A program made the position numbers and the translations under genes. Positions 32,201-52,721 of a DNA stretch of 64,000 bases are shown here, piece after piece. The DNA comes from Patescibacteria group bacterium (GTDB taxonomy: Bacteria > Patescibacteriota > Minisyncoccia > Phycocordibacterales > GCA-2747955): the NCBI GenBank assembly GCA_048538215.1, contig JBLYPV010000001.1, positions 139,495 through 203,494 of the forward strand. The letters are read 5' to 3'. The notes under the pieces are model-generated. The model was not told the DNA's origin. It ran no database searches and worked only from the letters and a program-made list of their open reading frames with translations. Every line of letters starts with the position of its first letter. Position 1 is the first letter of the stretch.

Positions 32201-34972
32201 TTATTCTACTATGAGATTACAGATCTTCCCAGGAACATAAATTACCCTCGTAATTACACCCTTATCTATCCAACGCTTAATTACATCCACTTCTTGAGAT
32301 GCATTGATTACATCCTCCTCGCTTGAGTCTGGCGCTATAGATATAGTGCCACGCGTCTTTCCATTGATTTGTATCGCAAGCTCTACCACCCGATCTGCCA
32401 ACATAGCTTCATCATATTCTGGCCACGAATAATCAGAAATGTACTTATCCTCTCCAGTAATAATACTTATGATCTCTTGCGATATATGCGGAGCAAATAC
32501 TGATAGTAATTTAATGAATTTGATGTAGCTATCTTTATCTATCTTATCTGCCTTATCTATTGCATTCACGCAAATCATTAGAGCCGAAATTGCTGTATTG
32601 AATTGGAGTTCTTGAATATCATCCCCTACTTTTTTAATTGTTTTGTGCAAAATCTTAGTGAGACTTTCTGGCGTTGATTTAGCTATTTTATCTTGCTGAC
32701 GCCATACTTTTTCCAAAAATCTATACATTCCCACTACCCCATTTTCATTCCACATTATTTCGTCCTCAAGTGGTCCTGCAAACATCATATACATACGTGT
32801 AGCATCAGCACCAAATCGCCGGACCATTTCATCCGGGTTTACCACATTACCTTTTGACTTAGACATTTTTTTGCCCTGCTTATCTAATACATAACCTTGA
32901 TGACGCAACTTAAGGAAAGGCTCGTCAAAATCAAGTAAGCCAATTGATTTCATTGCTTTTACCCAAAATCGAGCATACAAAAGATGCATATAGGTGTGCT
33001 CTGCCCCACCAATATATAAATCCACTGGCTGCCAATATTTGCAATTTTCCTTACTACACCATTCTGTATCGTTTTGTGGATCTGCGTAGCGAAGATAGTA
33101 CCAAGAAGAACATACAAAAGTATCCATTGTGTCTGTCTCAGGAGTCCACCCTTCCCCAAATAATTTTTCAGTGCGTTCGTGTAGCTCTTTACTTTCAGCA
33201 AGTGGAGCGGTGCCTCGAGGCACGAAATTTACATCAGTCGGAAGTGTCCACGGCAAATGCTCATCGGGTACCAAATGTGCCCTACCATCGGGATCATACA
33301 CGATTGGTATAGGAGCTCCCCAATAACGCTGACGGGATATCGACCAATCCTTTAGACGATATGTAGCGGTCATTTCTCCACCTACCTTTTTAGTGATCGC
33401 CTCTCCGGCTTCTTCTGAAGATTGGCCATCAAATTCTTTTGAATTAAATAAGATACCTTTATCGCAATAGATTGCTTTCTTATTTTTGTAGTTTTCTAAA
33501 AAAATTCGTAATGAATCTGCAATATTATTTTGATTTAAAGCTTCAGATATAGTCATCTCTAGTATTTTTTCTCCTTCATGAAGAACAAGCCTGGAAGTAT
33601 TTACCCCCGAGATAAAATTCATACATACATAGTGTTCGGCTTCAGCACCTTTATATGTATAGGTATCTCTAATATTTTGAGAATTCACATCTAATTCAAG
33701 CTCTTCTTTAAGCTCACGGATTATTGTATCCTGCACACTCTCTCCTTCTTCTCTGGTACCACCAAATACTGCTATTTTTCCTGGATTAGTTTTAGCATCA
33801 GTGCTTCTTTTTTGGAAGAGAAAGACTCCGGGTTTGTCTACAAGCTCTATCATTGCTCCTGCGTGTGTAATTTTTTGAGGAGCTACAACAGAACGAATTG
33901 GTAAATTATACTTTTGTGCAAATTCGAAATCCCTATCGTCATGAGCTGGCACCGCCATAATTGCTCCCGTGCCATACCCAGCCAATACATAATCAGCAAT
34001 AAATATAGGAATTTCTTCTCCTGATGCTGGATTGATAGCACTGACGCCCTCAAGCTTTATCCCAGTTTTTTCTTTGTTCTCAAGACGCTGAAGATTAGAT
34101 TTCTTACTTGTATTGTATTGATACTCCTTGATCTCCTCCAGATTCCCCAACTTGGGAGCTAAGCTCCCAAGTAGTAGGTGCTCTGGTGCAAGTACCATAT
34201 AGGTAGCTCCAAAAAGAGTATCTGGACGCGTAGTAAATACCTCAATTTGATAATCAGTGCCTTGTACCTTAAAAGTAATTTTTGCTCCCTCAGATTTACC
34301 AATCCACTCATTTTGGTTTTTCTTTGTGTGAGTCGGCCAGTCTATCTTGGAATCATCCGTATGAATTAGATCATCAGCAAAATCAGTAATCCTCAAATAC
34401 CATCCTGGAATTTCTTTTTGGACTACCTCGCTCTTACATCGCTCACACTCTCCCTGCTCTACTTGTTCGTTTGCTAAAGTAGTATGACACGATGGACACC
34501 AATTGACTGTCTGTGTATCTTTATACACAAGATCATTTTCAAAAAATCGTGCAAAGAGCCATTGTGTCCATTTATAATACGCAGGGTCAGATGTATAAAA
34601 TATGTCGCCATAATCATAGCCGAAGCCAAGTGACTTCATTTGCTTGATAAAATTCTCTCCAGCAGTGCGTACTGTTTGGCTAGGATGAATACCTGTCTTA
34701 ATAGCATAATTCTCGGCCGGCAAACCAAAAGAATCAAAGGCTTGATTGTGTAGCACACTGTAGCCCTGCATTCTTTGGTAGCGATACACTATGTCGCTTG
34801 CGGTGTATGATTCGGTATGGCCCATATGCAGACCGTCTCCTGATGGATAGGGCAGCATATCAAGCATAAAAAACTTTTCATTCGAATGAGCATTTTTATC
34901 TGTCTGGTCTACCTTCTGCTCACTCCAATGTTTTTGCCACTTTGATTCTACTTCTTTATGCTTGTACTTCAT
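32201..34972 (-). CDS. leuS: Leucyl-tRNA synthetase carrying an inserted Nudix-like domain
   Basis: 'PYPSGDGLHMGH' is the HIGH motif and 'KMSKSKGN' the KMSKS motif. 'TTRPDTLFGATY' marks the CP1 start and 'GTGAIMAVPAHDDRDFEFA' follows. An extra ~140 aa with 'GGTREEGESVQDTIIRELKEELEL' lies between that and 'GILFNSKEFDG'. Confidence 0.95.
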   Translation of the reverse strand: MKYKHKEVESKWQKHWSEQKVDQTDKNAHSNEKFFMLDMLPYPSGDGLHMGHTESYTASDIVYRYQRMQGYSVLHNQAFDSFGLPAENYAIKTGIHPSQTVRTAGENFIKQMKSLGFGYDYGDIFYTSDPAYYKWTQWLFARFFENDLVYKDTQTVNWCPSCHTTLANEQVEQGECERCKSEVVQKEIPGWYLRITDFADDLIHTDDSKIDWPTHTKKNQNEWIGKSEGAKITFKVQGTDYQIEVFTTRPDTLFGATYMVLAPEHLLLGSLAPKLGNLEEIKEYQYNTSKKSNLQRLENKEKTGIKLEGVSAINPASGEEIPIFIADYVLAGYGTGAIMAVPAHDDRDFEFAQKYNLPIRSVVAPQKITHAGAMIELVDKPGVFLFQKRSTDAKTNPGKIAVFGGTREEGESVQDTIIRELKEELELDVNSQNIRDTYTYKGAEAEHYVCMNFISGVNTSRLVLHEGEKILEMTISEALNQNNIADSLRIFLENYKNKKAIYCDKGILFNSKEFDGQSSEEAGEAITKKVGGEMTATYRLKDWSISRQRYWGAPIPIVYDPDGRAHLVPDEHLPWTLPTDVNFVPRGTAPLAESKELHERTEKLFGEGWTPETDTMDTFVCSSWYYLRYADPQNDTEWCSKENCKYWQPVDLYIGGAEHTYMHLLYARFWVKAMKSIGLLDFDEPFLKLRHQGYVLDKQGKKMSKSKGNVVNPDEMVRRFGADATRMYMMFAGPLEDEIMWNENGVVGMYRFLEKVWRQQDKIAKSTPESLTKILHKTIKKVGDDIQELQFNTAISALMICVNAIDKADKIDKDSYIKFIKLLSVFAPHISQEIISIITGEDKYISDYSWPEYDEAMLADRVVELAIQINGKTRGTISIAPDSSEEDVINASQEVDVIKRWIDKGVITRVIYVPGKICNLIVE

Positions 34973-41081: not shown

Positions 41082-41153
41082 GGCCCCATCGTCTAACGGC
41101 TAGGACATCAGGTTCTCATCCTGGAAATCGGAGTTCGATTCTCCGTGGGGTCA
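41082..41153 (+). tRNA. tRNA-Glu (anticodon CUC)
   Basis: GGCCCCAUCGUCUAACGGCUAGGACAUCAGG-UUCUCAU-CCUGGAAAUCGGAGUUCGAUUCUCCGUGGGGUCA. The acceptor stem is 7 bp with a G-U pair and the T-loop is UUCGAUU. CCA is not encoded. Confidence 0.8.
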
Positions 41154-42670
41154 CAAAACGAGACTTCGTCTCGACTTAAGGAACGCGCCGAAGGCGCACA
41201 AGAAAAAGTAGAAGCCAAAATATGCCGTCGCGACGCGACGAATTGGGACGGGACGGGTGCGCCGAAGCGCGCGGATTTGTCACGAACCAAGGGGTTCGTT
41301 CCGACTTTTTTGACGAAGGCGGCGATTTCGGAGAAATCATAGCTGGAGGATAAAAAGGTGGCTTGTTTCGTATCTAAAATCCACTCACGCAGGGGTTCGA
41401 CCCAATTATTTCCTTGGCGGGCAAAATCTTTCTTTTCCTGCTTCAAAGTCAGTGTGGCGCGCATGATTTCGTCTTTCTTTTTAAGATACAAGTCTTTTGG
41501 TATATCGCCATCTAAGTAACTCTCCACCAGCTTATCCATGCGTGCTTCACTGGCTTTGATACTATCTGAAAGATTTTGCACACCACTTTGCGATGCAGTA
41601 CTTTCCGCTTTCTCCCATTCCTCCACTTTACCAAGCATGTATGCGGTATACGCATCGCAAAGCGAAATTGTGTGAAGCTGTTCCTTTAGTTGGTCAACGA
41701 GAACGTCCTCGCGTACATACCCTTGGGAGCATGACCCTTTCTTTTTTGTGCAACGATAATAGCGATACTTTCCTCCGCACTTGCCCGTAGCCCACTGCGC
41801 GGTGATCATGCTCCCACACTCACCACACTCGAAAATACCAACAAACGGAAAATCATGCCTCACTTTCCGCTTACGAGGACGTTCACGCTCGACCAATACC
41901 TTTTGGACAGCTTCAAACAATTTCGAGGAAATGACTGGAACAAAGCTTCCATCAAACCACTCACCATGATGACTAACGAAACCGAGGTACGCACGATTGG
42001 TCAGCATGCGTTTGATGGAAGCTTTGGCAAGTGGCGTTCCTTTACCAGTCGTTACACCGTGAAGCGCCAAAAAGTCGGCGAGCGATACTAGTCCATGTTT
42101 ACCTGTGGCGTACTCCTCAAAAGCACGCACAATAATCTTGCTATGGACTGGATGAGGTTCGATATTCCGCGTACGCGGATTATTCACATAGCCAAATGGT
42201 GCTTTTGTGAGCCACTCACCTCGCCGAACTTTTTGGCGCATCCCTCTCTTCACATTCTGCGTCAGATTGTCTGAATAGTATTTCGACTGACCGAACGCCA
42301 CTTGCAACATAAAGAGCCCCTGCGGGGTGGGTTCAAACCAAGATGTCGGAAAGCGTAAAGACGACAGCTTGCTCGTATCTACCGCGTAGATGATGCGCCC
42401 ACCATCAATACTGTTTCTCGCCAAACGGTCAGGATGCCACGCTAAAACCGCGCTTGCTTCTCCCGCTTCAATGCGCGTCATCATCTCTGCAAATTGCTCA
42501 CGACCGGGAGTCTTTGCGCTTTTCGACTCTTGAAACTCCTTTAGGATTTCAAGATTTTCTTTACGCGCAAATTCACGCAATTCAAAAAGTTGTGCCTCAA
42601 TAGACATGACCTGCTTATCATCATCTTCTTTTGATTTGCGAGCGTATAGAAAATATTTTGGTTTGGACAT
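41108..42670 (-). CDS. Large serine recombinase (resolvase-like catalytic domain, recombinase domain and zinc ribbon); start at internal 'MSKPKYFLYARKS'
   Basis: 'YARKSKEDDDKQVMSIEAQ' is the Ser catalytic motif. The middle recombinase domain is present. 'CGECGSMITAQW...YYRCTKKKGSC' is the zinc ribbon, and the C-terminus is a coiled-coil. The ORF 3' end runs through the left TIR into the tRNA-Glu 3' end. Confidence 0.85.
   Translation of the reverse strand: MSKPKYFLYARKSKEDDDKQVMSIEAQLFELREFARKENLEILKEFQESKSAKTPGREQFAEMMTRIEAGEASAVLAWHPDRLARNSIDGGRIIYAVDTSKLSSLRFPTSWFEPTPQGLFMLQVAFGQSKYYSDNLTQNVKRGMRQKVRRGEWLTKAPFGYVNNPRTRNIEPHPVHSKIIVRAFEEYATGKHGLVSLADFLALHGVTTGKGTPLAKASIKRMLTNRAYLGFVSHHGEWFDGSFVPVISSKLFEAVQKVLVERERPRKRKVRHDFPFVGIFECGECGSMITAQWATGKCGGKYRYYRCTKKKGSCSQGYVREDVLVDQLKEQLHTISLCDAYTAYMLGKVEEWEKAESTASQSGVQNLSDSIKASEARMDKLVESYLDGDIPKDLYLKKKDEIMRATLTLKQEKKDFARQGNNWVEPLREWILDTKQATFLSSSYDFSEIAAFVKKVGTNPLVRDKSARFGAPVPSQFVASRRHILASTFSCAPSARSLSRDEVSFCDPTENRTPISRMRT
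41151..41281. repeat. Left terminal inverted repeat of the recombinase element
   Basis: Aligns to the reverse complement of 42698-42828: a 17-bp perfect outer segment, a diverged middle with a shared CGCGCC-RAAGGCGC motif, and a 48-bp perfect inner core. Confidence 0.7.
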
Positions 42671-42697
42671 ATATAAAGGTTTTAGATACGAAACAAG

Positions 42698-42828
42698 GAC
42701 AAATCCGCGCGCTTCGGCGCACCCGTCCCGTCCCAATTCGTCGCGGAGCGACGAGGTATTTTGCCTGCCTGTTCTGCTCGCGCGCCTTTGGCGCGCTCGC
42801 TGACTTCGTTAGAAGTCTCGTTTTGTGA
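42698..42828. repeat. Right terminal inverted repeat of the recombinase element
   Basis: Reverse complement of 41151-41281 (see left TIR). Confidence 0.7.
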
Positions 42829-43175
42829 TGAATTACTACATGTTGCTCGAACCCATTTTGAACAATCGCGAAGCGATTGATCTTCGCACGCGCCGCGCGC
42901 GTTGTGGCTTTGAACCAAATCGTACGCTCCGATTGCGTGGTGATTCTGCGCGCCTCGCTGCCTCGCTCCTCCCCAGACCTTTCTAAAAGAAAGTAAGGAA
43001 ATTTTTTATTTTTACATGCACGCAGAGCAAGCATCCAAGGAGCGTTCAAGAGTCGCTACGCACGCAGAGCGTGCGATATAGTTCAAAGCCACCACGCGCT
43101 TCGCGCGTGCAAACTCAATCGCTTCGTGATGTGGAATAAGTTAGAGTAAAGGATATGATTTCATCACTAACATGG

Positions 43176-44788: not shown

Positions 44789-46102
44789 TCAATCAATCTC
44801 TTTGATATCTTTAATACGCTCATTCTGCTGGGGATCAATTAAAAAGCCTTTCAAATCCTTCCGCCCTATAATTACATCACTACGTAAGTGCTCCCTATCA
44901 GTGACAGAAATAAGTGTAGGAATTTTTCTATTTTTAATCGAGAGTACCACTTCAGCTGTTTCACGAATAGCAGTACCTGTCGCGCTACGCACATGGATCA
45001 TTCTTGGTGTAGTCTCGAGCTTTAGTTTATTTGCAAGTTCTTGGTCAATCGAAGTGCGATAAGCCCCCGTATCTATCTTTGCTTCTATTTGTACATCTTT
45101 GCCGTTTTGCGGATTAAAAATCCCAACTTGCTCAAAGATGCCGATTATATTTGCATTCTTATCTTTTGATACTTTTTGTGAAAAATTTTCTGTAAATAAA
45201 TTTTTCCCAATTTCTATACCTCGTTTTATATCTGGTTTTGGGGTAATATTTGTCACACGCTTTAATCGTTCCCAAAGAGAAGCTCGACACACAGATTGAA
45301 TAGACAGTCCTGGTCGAGCATTAATTTCAATAACTAACGGACCTTTGTTTTTATCCAAAATTATATCAATACCTGCAAAGCCAAGCTTGCTAGCATTTGC
45401 TGATTGTACAGCTTGTTCTAATACCTCCTCCCACATTGGTATTTTTATACCTCTAAGTTTTATACGCGTACCAGGAAATAATCTAATAGTTTTGCCTCGT
45501 TGCCAACCGCTTGTAGTAATACCTGTTGATATATCGATCCCAAGCCCCACTGCGCCTTGAGTCAAATTGGCCTTGCCTTCTGAGATTATTGTTGGTATTC
45601 TCATCATTGCCATTACAGGCACTCCAGAAAATACGATAACCCTAATATCAGGCGTGCCGTATATGGGGATTTTCTTAAAAAACTTCATAGGCACAATTCG
45701 CTCTTCAATAAAAGCTTTATCTGCCAAGGAACTAAGCGAAAACATTCCCATAATGATATCGAAGATGTGTGATTCTAAGTCCTGTACACTAATATGCTCT
45801 CCATCCTCTGTAATACCTGATATTCCATCCCACTTTTTTACTAAAATTATTCCACCTCCTCCATACCCTCTCGCTGGTTTTACCACAAAACTTTTGGGTA
45901 ATTGATACCAATCAAAATCTCTTACATTTTTAACAGAATTAAAACTTGCTAATAGTGCTGGAGTATTGAGTCCCTTTTGTAAAAGTAAACGCTTTGTTTT
46001 CAGTTTATCATCTGCATTTTGTTTAGCATGCGATTTATTATATGGCAAAATGTACAAAAAATTGCGCGCATTCATTCCTAGGGGTGGTTGGCTGCCATTC
46101 AT
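44789..46102 (-). CDS. RimK-like ATP-grasp ligase fused to a C-terminal retropepsin-like aspartic protease domain (DUF785/'Zn_protease' type)
   Basis: The ATP-grasp part carries 'FVVKPARGYGGGGIILV' as the Gly-rich ATP loop and 'LVIEINARPGLSIQ' as the C-terminal grasp motif. The C-terminal ~120 aa carry 'EAKIDTGAYRTSID', a D-T/S-G aspartyl protease signature. Confidence 0.7.
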   Translation of the reverse strand: MNGSQPPLGMNARNFLYILPYNKSHAKQNADDKLKTKRLLLQKGLNTPALLASFNSVKNVRDFDWYQLPKSFVVKPARGYGGGGIILVKKWDGISGITEDGEHISVQDLESHIFDIIMGMFSLSSLADKAFIEERIVPMKFFKKIPIYGTPDIRVIVFSGVPVMAMMRIPTIISEGKANLTQGAVGLGIDISTGITTSGWQRGKTIRLFPGTRIKLRGIKIPMWEEVLEQAVQSANASKLGFAGIDIILDKNKGPLVIEINARPGLSIQSVCRASLWERLKRVTNITPKPDIKRGIEIGKNLFTENFSQKVSKDKNANIIGIFEQVGIFNPQNGKDVQIEAKIDTGAYRTSIDQELANKLKLETTPRMIHVRSATGTAIRETAEVVLSIKNRKIPTLISVTDREHLRSDVIIGRKDLKGFLIDPQQNERIKDIKEID

Positions 46103-46105
46103 ATA

Positions 46106-47002
46106 TTATCTTGATTTTAGAAGATCTCTAAAACGAAATCGCTCCATTAAACGTAAGCCAAAAAATCGACCTATGTAGATATTAAGTGGAATCAATAACA
46201 ATATCATTTCGGGATAATTGATTAAAAAAATGCGAGCTGATTCCCACAGTAATAAGTAATACCCACCAATTCCTAATATAAGAGTAGTGAATACCGTATT
46301 CCATGCGTGTCCAGGATGAGAATCAAATTGCAGTCGTACAATCCGCTCTGACATAATAATCAAAAGCAAAACAGGAACTACTGATATTGATGATACAGGA
46401 ACAATCCCCCAGGCTGCAAAAGCAAAAAGTGCAAATAAGACAGCAATAGATACAAATAACATAGAGAGAGTAATTTTGGGTTGTTGCATAATTCGTACTT
46501 TACGAAATACCATACGAGCTACGATTGAAGCTATTAAAATTACTGCCAAGAGCAATACGCCAATTACTATATTTGATGCTAAAAGTGCAATAGAAAAAGA
46601 GATAACCACAAGTGTATCAAGGCTGGGTAAGCCAATTAAGTTTCTTGAAATAGTAACCAGTGTGGCAAGTACGGGTATCATCATAGTAAGCACAAGGGTC
46701 TCTACAGGAATCCCATACTCTACAGCTTGCGAAAGTCCATAGGTAAAAAAATTAGTAAATTTTAGTGTACTAACATCACGAGTAAATACTTCTTCGCTAC
46801 TTTTTTCTCCAGGAACAAGAAGTGGTTCGTGCTCAGTAAATCCAGGAAGCGTCCAAATAGATGTAAAGCCACTGTTTGTAACTTTTGCATCTGAATCCGC
46901 CTGTGCTAATAATACACTTGGGCTTGATAATAAAACTAATACTACAAGCACATAAAGTTTATTCATGTCCCCTATTGTAAAAAAAGAAAACCCACTAGCC
47001 AA
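46106..47002 (-). CDS. Secreted-N-terminus 7TM membrane protein (7TM_transglut-like, without a transglutaminase domain)
   Basis: A signal peptide and a ~90-aa extracytoplasmic segment are followed by ~7 hydrophobic helices. It lies 4 nt upstream of, and co-directional with, the ATP-grasp-protease gene. Confidence 0.6.
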   Translation of the reverse strand: MASGFSFFTIGDMNKLYVLVVLVLLSSPSVLLAQADSDAKVTNSGFTSIWTLPGFTEHEPLLVPGEKSSEEVFTRDVSTLKFTNFFTYGLSQAVEYGIPVETLVLTMMIPVLATLVTISRNLIGLPSLDTLVVISFSIALLASNIVIGVLLLAVILIASIVARMVFRKVRIMQQPKITLSMLFVSIAVLFALFAFAAWGIVPVSSISVVPVLLLIIMSERIVRLQFDSHPGHAWNTVFTTLILGIGGYYLLLWESARIFLINYPEMILLLIPLNIYIGRFFGLRLMERFRFRDLLKSR

Positions 47003-47044
47003 GTGGGTGTTTCTTGCGTATTTTTTTAGATATGATAGCTCATA

Positions 47045-47488
47045 CTACTGTTCTCGTAATATTTTTTCTGCACCGAGAACCACCATTTTAGCAATCTCAT
47101 CTTGCGAAGAGTGCACAAGCTTTTCTTTAAGGTGCTCCCCTTTGTGCTCTGCTTCTTTAAGAATCTCTTCAGCCCGTGTATTTGCTCCCATAATAATATC
47201 AGCTTCTCTTTTCTTGGCCGTATCGACTGCTTGTTTTATCTCTTGGCTAGCCTCCTCCCCTGCTTTTTGCAGTATATCCATTTTCTCTGCCTCAGCTTTT
47301 TCTAAAGTGGCTTGAGCTTGCTCGGCATTCTCTACTCCTTCCCTGATAGTCTCTGAGCGCTCATCGAGTAATTGTGATATCTTACGGAAAATAAAATAAT
47401 ATAAAATTCCTAAAATAATCAAAAAATTAATAATTTCAGCAATAAATATTTTTGGGTCTAATCCGAATTGTCCTATAATTTCTTGCAT
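47045..47488 (-). CDS. atpF: F-type ATP synthase subunit b
   Basis: An N-terminal TM helix is followed by a long charged Ala/Glu/Lys-rich helix. It lies downstream of atpE. Confidence 0.8.
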   Translation of the reverse strand: MQEIIGQFGLDPKIFIAEIINFLIILGILYYFIFRKISQLLDERSETIREGVENAEQAQATLEKAEAEKMDILQKAGEEASQEIKQAVDTAKKREADIIMGANTRAEEILKEAEHKGEHLKEKLVHSSQDEIAKMVVLGAEKILREQ

Positions 47489-47505
47489 AGAATTTGCAAT
47501 TTATC

Positions 47506-47709
47506 TTACAGTACAAAAAATAGTCCGATAGCGGCAAGTCCAAAAAGCTCTACCATACCTGCCCCAACAAACATAAAAGGAATTATTTTCCCGCTTGCTT
47601 CTGGATTGCGAGCTATCCCCTCGAGTGACTTTGAAAAAATCATAGCTACTCCGATAGCGGGCCCTAATACACCAAATCCTACTATAATTGCTTGTGCCAA
47701 TGTTTCCAT
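47506..47709 (-). CDS. atpE: F-type ATP synthase subunit c
   Basis: It is a 67-aa two-helix hairpin. 'ARNPE' forms the polar loop and the conserved carboxylate is in 'GMVELFGL'. Confidence 0.8.
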   Translation of the reverse strand: METLAQAIIVGFGVLGPAIGVAMIFSKSLEGIARNPEASGKIIPFMFVGAGMVELFGLAAIGLFFVL

Positions 47710-47851
47710 ATCTATATCGTTTACATATTTAATAATACCAAGCTATTGTAGCAAACGAGGGCGAAGTTTCAAACACAAAAGTGAGAATTCCTAGGCCTTC
47801 ATTAAACAATACGAAGGGTTTATGATTTTGATTGTACTCTCTCATTTACCT

Positions 47852-48709
47852 CTAGTGAGGCTCATCTGTAGCGAGCTTGACATAGATAATAGTAAGTAGA
47901 GCAAAGATACCCGCTTGCAGAAATGCCACGAAAATTTCAAACAGAATAAGTGGTACAGGAAGAATAAAGTGTACTGTGTGTGATACGAGCAATAGCAAAA
48001 TTCCTCCCACCAAAATATTTCCAAAAAGTCGGAATGAGAGAGATACAAGCTTAGCTGCCTCAGATACAAGCTCAATAAGCCCTAGTGGTATAGAAAGTGG
48101 CTTTCTAATATTGATAAACTTACTTCCATAGCGAAACAAGCCGAGCACAAAAATACCCGTAATTTGCACAAAAATAAACGCCGTCAGTGCCAAGGCGATG
48201 GTCATATTCAAATCCGAATGCAGTGGCTTAAATAAGAGCTCATCATTGAATGTGATTGATTCTGATCCTGGGATAAATTTTATAAGATTAAAAAATACTA
48301 TAAAGATAAAAAGTGATGCTACCAAAGGAAATGTTTTCTTAGAAATAGCCTCATTTTCTATAATTGAATTTGTAAATTCGTATCCTTTTTCTACTAGTAG
48401 CTCAAAAAGGGATTGTATTCTACTGGGAATAGTCTTGATCCGTAATGAAAAAATCAATACAAATATAACTAAAATCAAACTACCTACCAAAGAAGTGATC
48501 ATCGAATTGGTAATTGGAAAATTACCTATCATTCCAAAGTGCTGCGCCTTTAATGCTACCTCAAATTCTGAATGATCCGCATCTTGATTTATGTGTACAC
48601 TGCTTGTTGCTATGCTCTCGCCTTGGCTATCTTCTGTAGATTCCGGATCAAAAAGCGTAGTATTCAATACTCCTTCACCAGAATTTGTAGCTATACTTGT
48701 ACTAATCAT
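47852..48709 (-). CDS. atpB: F-type ATP synthase subunit a
   Basis: 'LSFRLFGNILVG' is the essential Arg motif. The protein is polytopic. Confidence 0.85.
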   Translation of the reverse strand: MISTSIATNSGEGVLNTTLFDPESTEDSQGESIATSSVHINQDADHSEFEVALKAQHFGMIGNFPITNSMITSLVGSLILVIFVLIFSLRIKTIPSRIQSLFELLVEKGYEFTNSIIENEAISKKTFPLVASLFIFIVFFNLIKFIPGSESITFNDELLFKPLHSDLNMTIALALTAFIFVQITGIFVLGLFRYGSKFINIRKPLSIPLGLIELVSEAAKLVSLSFRLFGNILVGGILLLLVSHTVHFILPVPLILFEIFVAFLQAGIFALLTIIYVKLATDEPH

Positions 48710-51638: not shown

Positions 51639-52721
51639 TTAGAGTTTAGCGTCAAATGTATCAATTACTTGTGATCCAGAACGAATATAGATAGTGAGCG
51701 ATTCTTCACCTTCTAAATATGAGGGAATATCGAGTGTGCGCTCACCCATTCCTGCGATAGCAGATCCTAAATAGTGTCGGCGATTATTTGAATCAATGGC
51801 CTCAATATATACAACTGCATTTGGATTAATTGCTCTTGTGTTCCAGCGAGCGGTAATTTGCCCAAGGGAGGCCGAAGGAATACCTGCTGAGAGTGCATTA
51901 GAAGAAAATCCATAATTATTGGTCGGTGTATATGAATTATATGCTGAATAAGAATTAGTGTAGCTGAAATTACTCGAGCCATAGCTTGTATACGGATTGT
52001 TCGAATAAGAATTTAGCGATGGTGACCGATCGTTGTATGTACTTAATGCTGAGCCACTACTAGCTCCTCGTGAAGAATAGTTTCCAGGTGTATAGCTTGA
52101 GCTAAAATTAGTATAGGAGCCCAAGGAATTATAATCGCGATTATTTGTAGTATATGAAGATCCAGATAGACTAGTATTACTTGAAGAGTACGAAGTATTA
52201 TTTTGAGTATTTGAGCTCGTAGTATTAGTAGTCCAAAGATTAGAGTGATCAGCAAAGGGATCGACCCCTAAATTACTAATTTGAGCAGCTAGACTATCAA
52301 AAAGGAATGTGCGTACTACTAGGCTTGAAAGCTCCTTTGTCTGCTTATGGGTAATCAACTCATCAAAAGTAAAGCTTGTATCGAGAAATTGTATATGAGG
52401 AATATCGATGAGGGTATCACGGCCATAGCGACACTTTTTTGTATCTTCAATTATAAGAGTATTATCCCCCTTCTTGCTAATATTAAATTCGTTAACATCA
52501 GCAAAATACTTTACCGTATCTCCATGATTGCTTTGAGTATAGCGCTTGTTGCCATCACCGCAGTGTCCAATACGAGCAGATGCAAAGCCGGTACTTGATA
52601 TAAACAATATTATTACCAGGGCTATAGAGCGTTTCATACTAATCATTATATCATCCGTCTCCATTTCAAGCACCTTTGTTGTACACAAAATAAGCTTTTT
52701 ACTCAATGAAATAGATGCCAA
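51639..52721 (-). CDS. Secreted protein with a long Ser/Tyr/Asn/Thr-rich low-complexity region (probable start at the internal 'MKRSIALVIILF', ~52637)
   Basis: It has a signal peptide. A structured N-terminal ~120 aa is followed by ~150 aa of 'SSNTSLSGSSYTTNN...YSNNPYTSYGSSNFSYTNSYSAYNSYTPTNNYG', and then a structured C-terminus. Confidence 0.55.
   Translation of the reverse strand: MASISLSKKLILCTTKVLEMETDDIMISMKRSIALVIILFISSTGFASARIGHCGDGNKRYTQSNHGDTVKYFADVNEFNISKKGDNTLIIEDTKKCRYGRDTLIDIPHIQFLDTSFTFDELITHKQTKELSSLVVRTFLFDSLAAQISNLGVDPFADHSNLWTTNTTSSNTQNNTSYSSSNTSLSGSSYTTNNRDYNSLGSYTNFSSSYTPGNYSSRGASSGSALSTYNDRSPSLNSYSNNPYTSYGSSNFSYTNSYSAYNSYTPTNNYGFSSNALSAGIPSASLGQITARWNTRAINPNAVVYIEAIDSNNRRHYLGSAIAGMGERTLDIPSYLEGEESLTIYIRSGSQVIDTFDAKL

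What the first reader, a model, noticed from the sequence alone, without database searches (positions are those of the whole stretch)
44789..47002. Two-gene predicted peptide-tagging/processing system: 7TM membrane protein followed by an ATP-grasp ligase fused to a retropepsin-like protease
The 7TM gene (46106-47002) and the ATP-grasp-protease gene (44789-46102) are co-directional and separated by 4 nt.
- The ATP-grasp portion has intact nucleotide-binding motifs (VVKPARGYGGGG, EINARPG) of the RimK/alpha-L-glutamate-ligase type.
- Its C-terminal ~120 aa carry a D-T-G aspartyl-protease signature typical of the DUF785 'putative ATP-dependent zinc protease' family, which is actually retropepsin-like.
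- To my recollection, comparative surveys of ATP-grasp amidoligases report co-occurrence of RimK-like ligases, retropepsin-like proteases and 7TM (often transglutaminase-fused) proteins.
- No substrate or function is experimentally established. Here the ligase and protease are fused into one polypeptide and the 7TM partner lacks the transglutaminase domain.
- The cassette is wedged between the atpBEF genes and tRNA-Ser, an odd place for it.
Basis: partly seen in the sequence, partly recalled or inferred. Interest (0 to 1): 0.65.

Follow-up and report, generated by a model that had tools for sequence, protein, structure and literature searches.

The report
Minimal Rlo-type ligase–protease membrane module
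This is a stripped-down version, common in ultra-small CPR bacteria but not described in the papers I could search, of the recently characterised RloABC envelope-stress system, in which the glutamate-ligase-like enzyme and the poly-glutamate-cutting protease are welded into one cytoplasmic protein that always travels with a seven-helix membrane partner.

Summary
Two co-directional genes, 3 nt apart, encode a 7TM_transglut-family membrane protein and a 437-aa RloC-type ATP-grasp ligase fused to a retropepsin with intact D-T-G-A. The 7TM gene most likely starts at ATG 46966, not TTG 47002. The family is no longer uncharacterised: it is a variant of RloABC of Pseudomonas aeruginosa (mBio 2025), where RloA retropepsins cut runs of 8 or more glutamates and loss of RloB/RloC suppresses loss of the proteases. 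The fused form is the standard form in CPR/Patescibacteria. All 85 fused loci examined are of this type, and the 7TM gene lies directly upstream in all 80 (of 83 tested) with upstream DNA. The catalytic Asp and the residues aligning with RloA's poly-Glu-binding Lys/Arg are invariant. Differences from canonical Rlo: the protease is cytoplasmic rather than secreted, the 7TM protein has no transglutaminase domain, and this genome carries only the two-gene core. Relatives of the same protease are instead fused to the outer end of the 7TM protein, so the three parts work together across the membrane. Most likely function: membrane-docked synthesis and trimming of an acidic (poly-α-glutamate-like) peptide. 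Substrate and 7TM role remain inferred. New variant of a known kind; moderate interest.

The parts
46106..46966 (-). RloB-like 7TM membrane protein gene (286 aa from ATG 46966; the maximal ORF extends to TTG 47002). It has a signal peptide (aa 1-22), an acidic extracytoplasmic linker (aa 23-87), a 7TM core (aa 88-266), and no transglutaminase domain.
   Evidence: PF14402 E 1e-15, above the gathering score. NCBIfam RloB model matched only at positions 304-507 of 508. AF2 pLDDT 83.7. N-out/C-in topology by charge distribution across 47 homologues. Start-site evidence.
46109..46168 (-). Conserved basic cytoplasmic C-terminal helix of the 7TM protein (GRFFGLRLMERFRFRDLLKSR). It is the candidate docking site for the ligase.
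   Evidence: G266, R267, G270, L271, E275, R278 and F279 are invariant in 47 homologues. The motif is also present in Pseudomonadales RloB and in protease::7TM fusions. Mean K+R 4.2 vs D+E 1.3. The docking role is inferred.
44789..46102 (-). Fusion gene: RloC-type ATP-grasp ligase joined to a retropepsin (437 aa).
   Evidence: AF2 pLDDT 88.8 with two confident domains and a disordered linker at residues 307-315.
45188..46081 (-). ATP-grasp ligase domain (aa about 8-305), RloC/TIGR02291 type. It lacks the N-terminal 'pre-ATP-grasp' domain of RimK.
   Evidence: PF14397 E 1.6e-63, TIGR02291 E 1e-77. Foldseek top hits are RimK 5zct/4iwx/7qys at E about 3e-11. Query residue 16 aligns to RimK residue 83. 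D246, E259, N261 and R263 are invariant.
45152..45187 (-). Flexible linker between ligase and protease (aa about 306-317).
   Evidence: pLDDT below 50 for residues 307-315. Stand-alone RloC of a Pseudomonadales genome ends at the aligned position.
44822..45151 (-). Retropepsin (clan AA, RimB/RloA-like) domain, aa about 318-427.
   Evidence: PF13650 above the gathering score; PF13975, PF05618 and TIGR03698 below threshold. The family profile hits 9G59 (6e-8), 9G58 and 2PMA best.
45062..45073 (-). Catalytic D-T-G-A motif (D344-A347).
   Evidence: D344, G346 and A347 are invariant and T345 is at least 90% conserved in 51 diverse fusion proteins. K342, R380, R403 and I411-x-G413 are also invariant.
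46980..47008 (-). Terminator-like hairpin plus T-run between atpF and the 7TM gene. It may separate the pair from the atp transcript.
   Evidence: This is a consensus match only (5 terminator-like sites found vs 3.0 expected in the region). The adjacent promoter-like match is at chance level.

Best explanation
The two genes form the minimal CPR form of the Rlo module. The cytoplasmic RloC-type ATP-grasp domain uses ATP to build an acidic, probably alpha-linked poly-glutamate-like peptide (free, or on an unidentified acceptor). It does this while docked on the conserved basic cytoplasmic face of the 7TM protein. The retropepsin domain fused to its C-terminus dimerises when the ligase oligomerises, and it cleaves runs of glutamates. 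This limits chain length or releases the product, and probably also stimulates the ligase, as RimB does for RimK. The 7TM protein links this chemistry to the envelope, most likely by passing the peptide to the cell surface; alternatively it gates the enzyme. Fusing the protease to the ligase guarantees that the ligase is never made without the enzyme that removes its harmful product. Shown here: domain identities, intact catalytic and substrate-binding residues, N-out/C-in topology, obligate synteny, and alternative fusions. Shown elsewhere: RloA and RimB cut poly-Glu, deletion of rloB or rloC suppresses loss of the proteases, and RimB activates poly-alpha-Glu synthesis by RimK. Inferred: glutamate specificity of the RloC-type ligase, docking on the 7TM protein, export, and a role in osmotic or envelope homeostasis.
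For: Ligase: PF14397 E 1.6e-63, TIGR02291 E 1e-77. The closest solved folds are RimK poly-alpha-Glu synthetases. Mg/ATP-site residues are invariant. Protease: D-T-G-A and I-x-G-R are conserved, and the family profile matches the RloA-family structures 9G59/9G58/2PMA best. K342, D344, R380 and R403 align with K46, D48, R114 and R137 of RloA, with the same 23-residue Arg-Arg spacing. R114A and R137A had the strongest effect on poly-Glu cleavage in vitro and failed to complement in vivo. Partnership: the 7TM gene is directly upstream in 80 of 80 fused loci with upstream DNA, in unrelated neighbourhoods, often overlapping by 4-14 nt. Rosetta-stone fusions of close relatives of this protease: to the ligase (this case), to the 7TM protein, to RimK, and to ligase plus MATCAP. 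Genetics in P. aeruginosa: deletion of rloB or rloC fully rescues the hypo-osmotic lethality of the triple protease mutant. RimB raises RimK ATPase about 4-fold and is needed for poly-alpha-Glu synthesis, and a RimB-RimK hybrid is proteolytically active. Topology: acidic N-terminal linker outside, basic loop 3 and C-terminal helix inside.
Against: No RloC-type ligase has been assayed, so glutamate specificity is extrapolated from RimK (about 22-24% identity). In P. aeruginosa the relevant proteases are secreted, and cytoplasmic RimB shows no genetic interaction with them. The cytoplasmic protease here may therefore do a different job. About half of the CPR loci add one to three further ATP-grasp ligases, and about 10-12 add a MATCAP-type peptidase. 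That points to a more complex product than plain poly-Glu in those lineages. The 7TM fold matches no solved transporter or receptor (best Foldseek E 0.7), so export is unproven. No complex model could be computed.
Confidence: 0.55

Rival explanations
1. Reversible protein tagging. The ligase adds glutamates to the C-terminus (or a side chain) of a specific protein, as RimK does to ribosomal protein S6 or TTL/TTLL enzymes do to tubulin. The fused retropepsin removes the tail, and the 7TM protein is the target or the scaffold.
For: This is the RimK/RimB paradigm. There are faint TTL-family matches. A MATCAP-type carboxypeptidase gene is adjacent or fused in about 10-12 of 85 loci, and MATCAP is the enzyme family that reverses tubulin tyrosination. 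About a third of fusion proteins have acidic C-terminal tails, and 30 of 173 end in Glu-Glu.
Against: Apart from the pair and lineage-specific housekeeping genes (ruvC, yebC), no third gene is conserved next to it. The 7TM C-terminus ends in K/S/Q/R rather than Glu. The window protein's own tail is only weakly acidic. S6 is not in the window, so it could not be examined. Lormand et al. found no plausible encoded poly-acidic substrate in P. aeruginosa.
Confidence: 0.2
2. Sensor-controlled cytoplasmic glutamate/poly-glutamate buffer. The 7TM protein is a receptor that senses membrane tension or an external cue, not a conduit. It switches the ligase-protease between polymerising and releasing glutamate, an osmolyte, entirely inside the cell.
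For: Both enzymatic domains are cytoplasmic (no signal peptide or TM segment). The Rlo phenotype is hypo-osmotic sensitivity, and glutamate is an osmolyte. The 7TM N-terminal ectodomains are highly variable (none, acidic linker, PKD, transglutaminase), as is typical of sensor modules. There is no transporter-like fold match.
Against: Close relatives put the same protease outside the cell. These are secreted RloA and protease::7TM fusions with N-terminal signal or anchor sequences, including a tandem-protease form. This is hard to explain if the product never leaves the cytoplasm.
Confidence: 0.15
3. Envelope polymer modification. The ligase adds an amino acid to a sugar-linked or peptidoglycan-related precursor at the membrane (hence Pfam's name 'sugar-transfer associated ATP-grasp'), and the protease edits it.
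For: The Pfam family name. Ddl, LysX and ArgX appear among the fold matches. P. aeruginosa protease mutants show cell-shape and beta-lactam phenotypes. One relative has a YdjC-like carbohydrate deacetylase fused. FemAB and Mur-ligase genes lie near one locus.
Against: The poly-Glu-binding residues of the protease are invariant. No glycosyltransferase or cell-wall gene is consistently linked. RimK-type ligases are the closest structures.
Confidence: 0.07
4. RiPP (graspetide-like) pathway: an ATP-grasp macrocyclase, a leader-peptide protease and a membrane exporter.
For: The ligase + protease + membrane protein triad resembles RiPP clusters. The PsnB graspetide ligase is among the weaker Foldseek hits (E about 3e-9).
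Against: There is no room for a precursor gene: the gaps are 3 nt, 37 nt and about 40-80 nt. No conserved small ORF of 50 aa or more is adjacent. The ligase is much closer to RloC/RimK, and the protease keeps poly-Glu-binding residues. There are also no matches to PADLOC defence-system models.
Confidence: 0.03

Closest known systems
RloABC operon of Pseudomonas aeruginosa (Lormand et al., mBio 2025, PMC12239564)
   Same: It has the same three modules: an RloC-type ATP-grasp (a Pseudomonadales RloC is 39% identical over residues 8-310), a PF14402 7TM protein with the same C-terminal cytoplasmic motif, and a RimB/RloA-family retropepsin that retains the residues aligning with the poly-Glu-binding Lys/Arg. 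The genes are co-directional and adjacent.
   Different: Here the protease is fused to the C-terminus of the cytoplasmic ligase, not secreted with a signal peptide. The 7TM protein lacks the inactive transglutaminase ectodomain and has a signal peptide plus a short acidic linker instead. Gene order is B-(C::A) rather than A-B-C. The host is CPR/Patescibacteria, whereas 96% of RloB hits were reported from Proteobacteria. NCBIfam's curated cut-offs for RloB and for TIGR02291 are not reached.
RimBK hybrid enzyme of Desulfotalea psychrophila and the RimK-RimB pair (Little et al., J Biol Chem 2025, PMC11957791)
   Same: A retropepsin and a glutamate-ligase-type ATP-grasp sit in one cytoplasmic polypeptide. 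The retropepsin cuts poly-Glu and activates the ligase.
   Different: The domain order is opposite (RimB is N-terminal in RimBK). The ligase there is true RimK with its N-terminal domain. Here the ligase is RloC-type (215 bits to PF14397 vs 55 to PF08443) and lacks that domain. RimBK has no 7TM partner, acts on ribosomal protein S6, and is found mainly in Flavobacteriales and Rhodobacterales.
Protease::7TM fusions (e.g. Rubrobacteraceae locus L083; P0218, P0224, P0235, P0250, P0188)
   Same: The same retropepsin and 7TM families are involved, with a stand-alone RloC-type ligase gene next door (shown for L083 only).
   Different: The protease is at the extracytoplasmic N-terminus of the 7TM protein, behind a signal or anchor sequence. 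That is the opposite side of the membrane from the window's protease.
Poly-gamma-glutamate synthetase PgsBCA/CapBCA with its hydrolase (from general knowledge, not tested here)
   Same: It is a functional analogy only: membrane-associated, ATP-dependent, non-ribosomal glutamate polymerisation coupled to export, with a dedicated depolymerase.
   Different: The proteins are unrelated (a Mur-ligase-type PgsB), the linkage is gamma, and no retropepsin is involved.
Tubulin TTL/TTLL ligases and the MATCAP detyrosinase (from general knowledge)
   Same: An ATP-grasp ligase is paired with a peptidase that reverses it. MATCAP-family domains are adjacent to or fused with this ligase-protease in some CPR relatives.
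   Different: The window itself has no MATCAP gene, the targets are unknown, and these are bacterial membrane-linked systems.

Membership tests
RloABC system | RloC: cytoplasmic ATP-grasp of the TIGR02291 / PF14397 family | tested here: met
   PF14397 215 bits (gathering score 31.4). TIGR02291 E 1e-77 but 261 bits, below the curated equivalog cut-off of 314. 39% identity to a Pseudomonadales RloC over residues 8-310. No signal peptide or TM segment.
RloABC system | RloB: 7TM domain (PF14402) fused to an inactive periplasmic transglutaminase domain | tested here: not met
   The 7TM half is met (PF14402 58 bits vs 25). The transglutaminase half is absent: the NCBIfam RloB model is matched only at positions 304-507 of 508, at 52 bits vs a cut-off of 900. 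All CPR homologues found are PF14402-only.
RloABC system | RloA: retropepsin that is secreted (N-terminal signal peptide) | tested here: not met
   The retropepsin is present with intact D-T-G-A, but it is fused behind a cytoplasmic ligase by a linker of about 12 residues, with no signal peptide or TM segment.
RloABC system | Protease recognises and cleaves runs of 8 or more glutamates through conserved Lys/Arg | tested here: inconclusive
   K342, R380 and R403 are invariant and align with K46, R114 and R137 of RloA with the same spacing. Activity itself cannot be tested with these tools.
RloABC system | Genes co-directional in one operon | tested here: met
   3-nt gap in the window. Adjacent in 80 of 80 fused loci with upstream DNA.
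RloABC system | Required for hypo-osmotic stress tolerance; rloB/rloC epistatic to the proteases | not testable with these tools
   Needs genetics.
RimK / RimBK | RimK-family ligase (TIGR00768, PF08443) with the N-terminal pre-ATP-grasp domain | tested here: not met
   TIGR00768 72 bits vs a cut-off of 143. PF08443 matches only partially. RimK residues 1-82 have no counterpart. Residues 1-45 of the model are helices only.
RimK / RimBK | RimB domain N-terminal to the ligase; no membrane partner | tested here: not met
   The order here is ligase then protease, and a 7TM partner is obligate.
Clan AA retropepsin, RimB/RloA-like (PF05618) | Single D-T/S-G-A active-site motif, a flap, and a C-terminal hydrophobic-hydrophobic-G-R motif, acting as a homodimer | tested here: met
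   D344-T-G-A and I411-I-G-R are conserved. The beta-rich domain has pLDDT above 90. The family profile matches 9G59/9G58/2PMA best. The window sequence's own PF05618 score is below threshold (20.3 vs 27). Dimerisation was not tested.
Graspetide/RiPP cluster | Adjacent precursor-peptide gene | tested here: not met
   No space or conserved small ORF.
Anti-phage defence systems (PADLOC) | Match to a known defence-protein model | tested here: not met
   No families matched either protein.

The most novel reading that the evidence does not exclude
The 7TM protein plus the ligase::protease would be a self-contained two-protein 'synthase-dependent' secretion machine for a non-ribosomal acidic peptide. 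The ligase polymerises glutamate at the cytoplasmic mouth of the 7TM protein, the growing chain is threaded outward through it, and the retropepsin acts as the chain-length or release factor. This would explain why evolution has placed the protease on either side of the membrane (fused to the ligase inside, or to the 7TM N-terminus outside). It would be a new class of polymer exporter and would identify the missing Rlo substrate.
Probability: 0.15. Interest if true: 0.8.

Novelty: new variant of a known kind. Interest (0 to 1): 0.5.

Why it matters
[quoted passage not shown] The CPR form reduces the system to two proteins and keeps the putative poly-Glu-binding residues. It also shows that the transglutaminase ectodomain and secretion of the protease are dispensable for the core. 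Together with the protease::7TM fusions, it gives a natural topology experiment: the protease works on either face of the membrane, which constrains where the product is. Its wide retention in genome-reduced Patescibacteria argues for an important envelope or osmotic role in these poorly understood organisms. It also offers a compact target for biochemical reconstitution.

Tried and rejected
- A single-sequence PDB search with the protease domain was only marginal (E 0.18); a family profile was needed.
- I considered whether an acidic C-terminal tail on the fusion protein is a built-in primer or pseudo-substrate. It is present in only about 37% of members and is weak in the window protein, so I rejected it as a family feature.
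- I looked for a conserved third (substrate) gene. Only lineage-specific ruvC/yebC, extra ATP-grasp ligases and MATCAP recur, and none is in the window.
- I looked for S6 in the window as a possible RimK-like target; it is absent.
- Horizontal-transfer explanation for the 'odd place': rejected, because GC is 36-37%, like the neighbouring atp genes, and the arrangement is shared with an 83%-identical relative.
- The promoter-like match before the 7TM gene is at chance level (16 found vs 16.1 expected). The G-rich stretch before ATG 46966 ends only 1 nt upstream of it, too close to be a canonical ribosome-binding site, so neither is used as evidence.
- Defence-system reading: no PADLOC match.
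- Literature searches for a CPR retropepsin/ATP-grasp description, or a bacterial MATCAP/ATP-grasp link, found nothing.
Full report
OBSERVATION. The downstream gene (44789-46102, 437 aa) carries the quoted motifs FVVKPARGYGGGG, VIEINARPGLS and KIDTGAYRTS. The upstream ORF runs to a TTG at 47002, but the real start is most likely the ATG at 46966 (286 aa). NCBI's model of the identical protein is 286 aa. Most homologues begin at the aligned Met of a signal peptide. The TTG sits in the loop of a terminator-like hairpin (47008-46990, then a T-run) that follows atpF. The genes are 3 nt apart: TAA ends at 46106, then 'tat', then ATG at 46102. Upstream are atpB, atpE and atpF. Downstream are tRNA-Ser(cga), 37 nt away, and a DEAD-box helicase.

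DOMAIN IDENTITIES. Fusion protein residues 13-284 match PF14397 (ATPgrasp_ST) at E 1.6e-63 and TIGR02291 ('alpha-L-glutamate ligase-like protein') at E 1e-77. The RimK matches are weaker and partial. The TIGR02291 score (261 bits) is below NCBI's equivalog cut-off (314). An AlphaFold2 model built on 51 homologues is confident (mean pLDDT 88.8). It shows two domains joined by a disordered linker at residues 307-315. Foldseek against the PDB puts RimK poly-alpha-L-glutamate synthetases first (E about 3e-11), then cyanophycin synthetase and ArgX/LysX. Residue 16 of the query aligns to residue 83 of RimK, and residues 1-45 of the model are helices only. This ligase type therefore lacks RimK's N-terminal pre-ATP-grasp domain, which in ATP-grasp enzymes generally helps bind the acceptor (general knowledge). 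The Mg/ATP-site residues D246, E259 and N261 are invariant.

The C-terminal about 110 residues match clan-AA aspartic protease models: PF13650 above threshold, and PF13975, TIGR03698 and PF05618 below it. A profile of 25 family members finds the RloA-family crystal structures 9G59 (6e-8) and 9G58, and Legionella 2PMA, ahead of Ddi1 and retroviral proteases. 9G58 and 9G59 are the structures deposited with the Rlo paper.

The 7TM protein matches only PF14402, and only the last 200 of the 508 positions of NCBIfam's RloB model, so the transglutaminase domain is absent.

THE KNOWN SYSTEM. Lormand et al. (mBio 2025, PMC12239564) described rloA-rloB-rloC in P. aeruginosa. RloA is a secreted retropepsin. 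RloB is an inactive transglutaminase fused to 7 TM helices. RloC is a cytoplasmic ATP-grasp. The three RloA paralogues are redundantly needed for growth in low-osmolarity medium, for biofilm, for beta-lactam tolerance and for normal cell shape. Deleting rloB or rloC suppresses these defects. RloA cuts runs of 8 or more glutamates. K46, R114 and R137 line the substrate channel. R114A and R137A had the strongest effect on cleavage in vitro and failed to complement in vivo. The natural substrate is unknown.

Little et al. (J Biol Chem 2025, PMC11957791) showed that the cytoplasmic homologue RimB cuts poly-Glu tails from S6. RimB raises RimK ATPase about 4-fold and is needed for poly-alpha-Glu synthesis. 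A natural RimB-RimK hybrid (RimB N-terminal) is proteolytically active.

HOW COMMON IS THE FUSED FORM. The exact protein is in NCBI from a Patescibacteria MAG (contig 622,806 bp). More than 120 full-length homologues of about 430 aa and about 50% identity carry both domains. A pattern scan of one genome per GTDB species found at least 592 genomes with a relative. Of the best 80, 77 are fused. They come from Kaiser-, Pacei-, Levy-, Nomura-, Moran-, Shapiro-, Andersen-, Kerfeld-, Dojka- and Saccharibacteria. Some MAGs are labelled Gammaproteobacteria or Bdellovibrionales; for one of these the record is a whole chromosome of about 0.8 Mb.

With my own HMMs, 83 loci (82 fetched plus the window) carry the fusion. 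The 7TM gene is directly upstream on the same strand in all 80 that have upstream sequence, and it abuts or overlaps in 77. Independent gene calls show 14-nt overlaps or 3-nt gaps. Two further fused loci fetched later (L086, L087) show the same adjacency, giving 85 fused loci in all. Beyond the pair, the neighbourhoods differ.

In 51 fusion proteins, K342, D344, G346, A347, R380, R403, I411 and G413 are invariant. By the profile alignment, K342, D344, R380 and R403 correspond to RloA K46, D48, R114 and R137. The Arg-Arg spacing of 23 residues is identical. This mapping is inferred by alignment through homologous structures, not through RloA of P. aeruginosa itself.

VARIATION THAT INFORMS MECHANISM.
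(a) The 7TM partner comes in three size classes: about 215-250 aa (bare 7TM), about 285-355 aa (signal peptide plus an acidic linker, as here), and about 500-550 aa. The one long form tested has a PKD domain, not a transglutaminase. The ectodomain is therefore dispensable and interchangeable. The cytoplasmic C-terminal motif GRxFGLRLxExxRF is invariant and is shared with proteobacterial RloB.
(b) Charge distribution across 47 homologues gives N-out/C-in topology. The linker has D+E 12.8 vs K+R 6.7. Loop 3 has K+R 2.85 vs D+E 0. The C-terminal helix has K+R 4.2.
(c) The closest representatives of the protease domain in 1.84 billion proteins occur in several architectures. Some are C-terminal to RloC-type ligases. 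Others are N-terminal to 7TM proteins behind a signal or anchor sequence, once as a tandem pair. Others are N-terminal to RimK, or sit in ligase-protease-MATCAP and ligase-protease-YdjC proteins (also locus L083). These are classical Rosetta-stone fusions linking all three components. They place the protease on either side of the membrane.
(d) 45 of 85 fused loci have one to three further ATP-grasp genes (RimK-like, PF08443 E 1.6e-29, or a type of about 500 aa) directly downstream. About 10-12 have a MATCAP-family metallopeptidase gene adjacent or fused. The 64-kb window has neither, so it carries the bare core.

LOCAL CONTEXT. The order rpoC-?-dnaG-rpoD-atpB-E-F-7TM-fusion is shared with an 83%-identical relative but not with more distant ones. 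The cassette's GC (36-37%) equals that of the atp genes. The 'odd place' is a lineage-specific arrangement and not a sign of recent insertion. Whether the pair is read through from atp or has its own promoter is open. The terminator-like hairpin is only a consensus match, and the promoter-like match is at chance level.

MECHANISM. The best-supported reading is a membrane-docked ligase that builds an acidic, poly-alpha-glutamate-like peptide. An in-cis retropepsin trims or releases it, and the 7TM protein couples the process to the envelope. The fusion ensures the ligase is never made without the protease. That fits the P. aeruginosa finding that RloB and RloC are harmful when the proteases are missing. 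It also fits RimB's role as an activator of RimK. The placement of the protease on either membrane face in different lineages is most simply explained if the product crosses the membrane via the 7TM protein. This is inference, and the 7TM fold has no solved relative.

Rivals are reversible tagging of a protein, a purely cytoplasmic sensor-gated glutamate buffer, envelope-polymer modification, and a RiPP pathway. They are weighed in the Rival explanations section of this report. The RiPP reading is disfavoured because there is no room for a precursor gene. No PADLOC defence-system model matches either protein.

COMPARISON AND NOVELTY. It works like Rlo/Rim but fails two defining features of RloABC: a secreted protease and a transglutaminase-bearing RloB. 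It also fails the defining features of RimBK: a RimK-type ligase, a protease-first order, and no membrane partner. It is best filed as a new, CPR-wide variant of a known kind. I found no paper describing it. The Rlo paper reports RloB as 96% proteobacterial and does not mention fusions or Patescibacteria.

VERDICT. Interest is moderate (0.5). The kind of system is known. The inverted protease topology, the minimal two-protein form and the set of alternative fusions give testable constraints on an unsolved mechanism.

Noticed in passing
window 41082-42800: A large serine recombinase gene (Resolvase + Recombinase + Zn_ribbon_recom) is flanked by 101-nt inverted repeats, 84% complementary (41181-41281 and 42698-42798). 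It abuts tRNA-Glu (41082-41154). This segment has 48-50% GC against 36-43% around it, so it is probably an integrated or invertible mobile element.
   Followed up: partly
window 42883-43113: A second inverted repeat, with arms of 65 nt (78% complementary) separated by 101 nt, lies in the non-coding stretch between the recombinase segment and the DEAD-box helicase gene.
   Followed up: no
window 32201-34972 (-): The leucyl-tRNA synthetase ORF (923 aa) has a NUDIX-domain match (E 1.4e-9) at residues 372-472, next to the editing domain. This is an unusual insertion.
   Followed up: no
window 47045-48709 (-): atpB-atpE-atpF are not followed by atpHAGDC. A terminator-like hairpin follows atpF. The F1 genes were not among the large ORFs checked in the window. 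The same split is seen in the 83%-identical relative L086.
   Followed up: partly
L004:3783-5036, L087:2650-3957, L061:6001-8403 and about 8 other loci: MATCAP-family (PF08014, formerly DUF1704) metallopeptidase genes lie next to, or are fused with, the ligase-protease in some CPR relatives. This pairs a bacterial ATP-grasp ligase with the peptidase family that reverses tubulin tyrosination in eukaryotes. No paper linking the two in bacteria was found.
   Followed up: partly
45 loci, e.g. L022:7387-8382, L024:7368-9196, L040:5231-6730: One to three additional ATP-grasp ligase genes (RimK-like of about 300 aa, or a type of about 500 aa) sit directly downstream of the fusion gene on the same strand. 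This suggests a multi-step or hetero-peptide product in those lineages.
   Followed up: partly
P0241, P0257, P0187, P0188 (representative library): Close relatives of the protease domain show odd architectures: fused to a class-I lysyl-tRNA synthetase (P0241), ligase-protease-YdjC (P0257), tandem retropepsin domains in one chain (P0187), and a tandem pair ahead of a 7TM domain (P0188).
   Followed up: partly
C-termini of fusion-protein homologues (P0001-P0120 and loci): About 37% of family members have a strongly acidic tail after the protease domain, and 30 of 173 end in Glu-Glu, like the S6 tail that primes RimK. The window protein's tail (DPQQNERIKDIKEID) is only mildly acidic.
   Followed up: partly
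L008, L009, L023, L025 and others: Many MAG records carrying this CPR-type fusion are titled 'uncultured Gammaproteobacteria' or 'Bdellovibrionales'. One of them (L023) is a single chromosome of 810,692 bp. The labels look wrong.
   Followed up: no
window 51639-52721 (-): A 360-aa ORF between rpoC and dnaG has no Pfam match. A 346-aa gene, also without a Pfam match, sits at the same position in the relative L086, so it is a conserved hypothetical gene.
   Followed up: no
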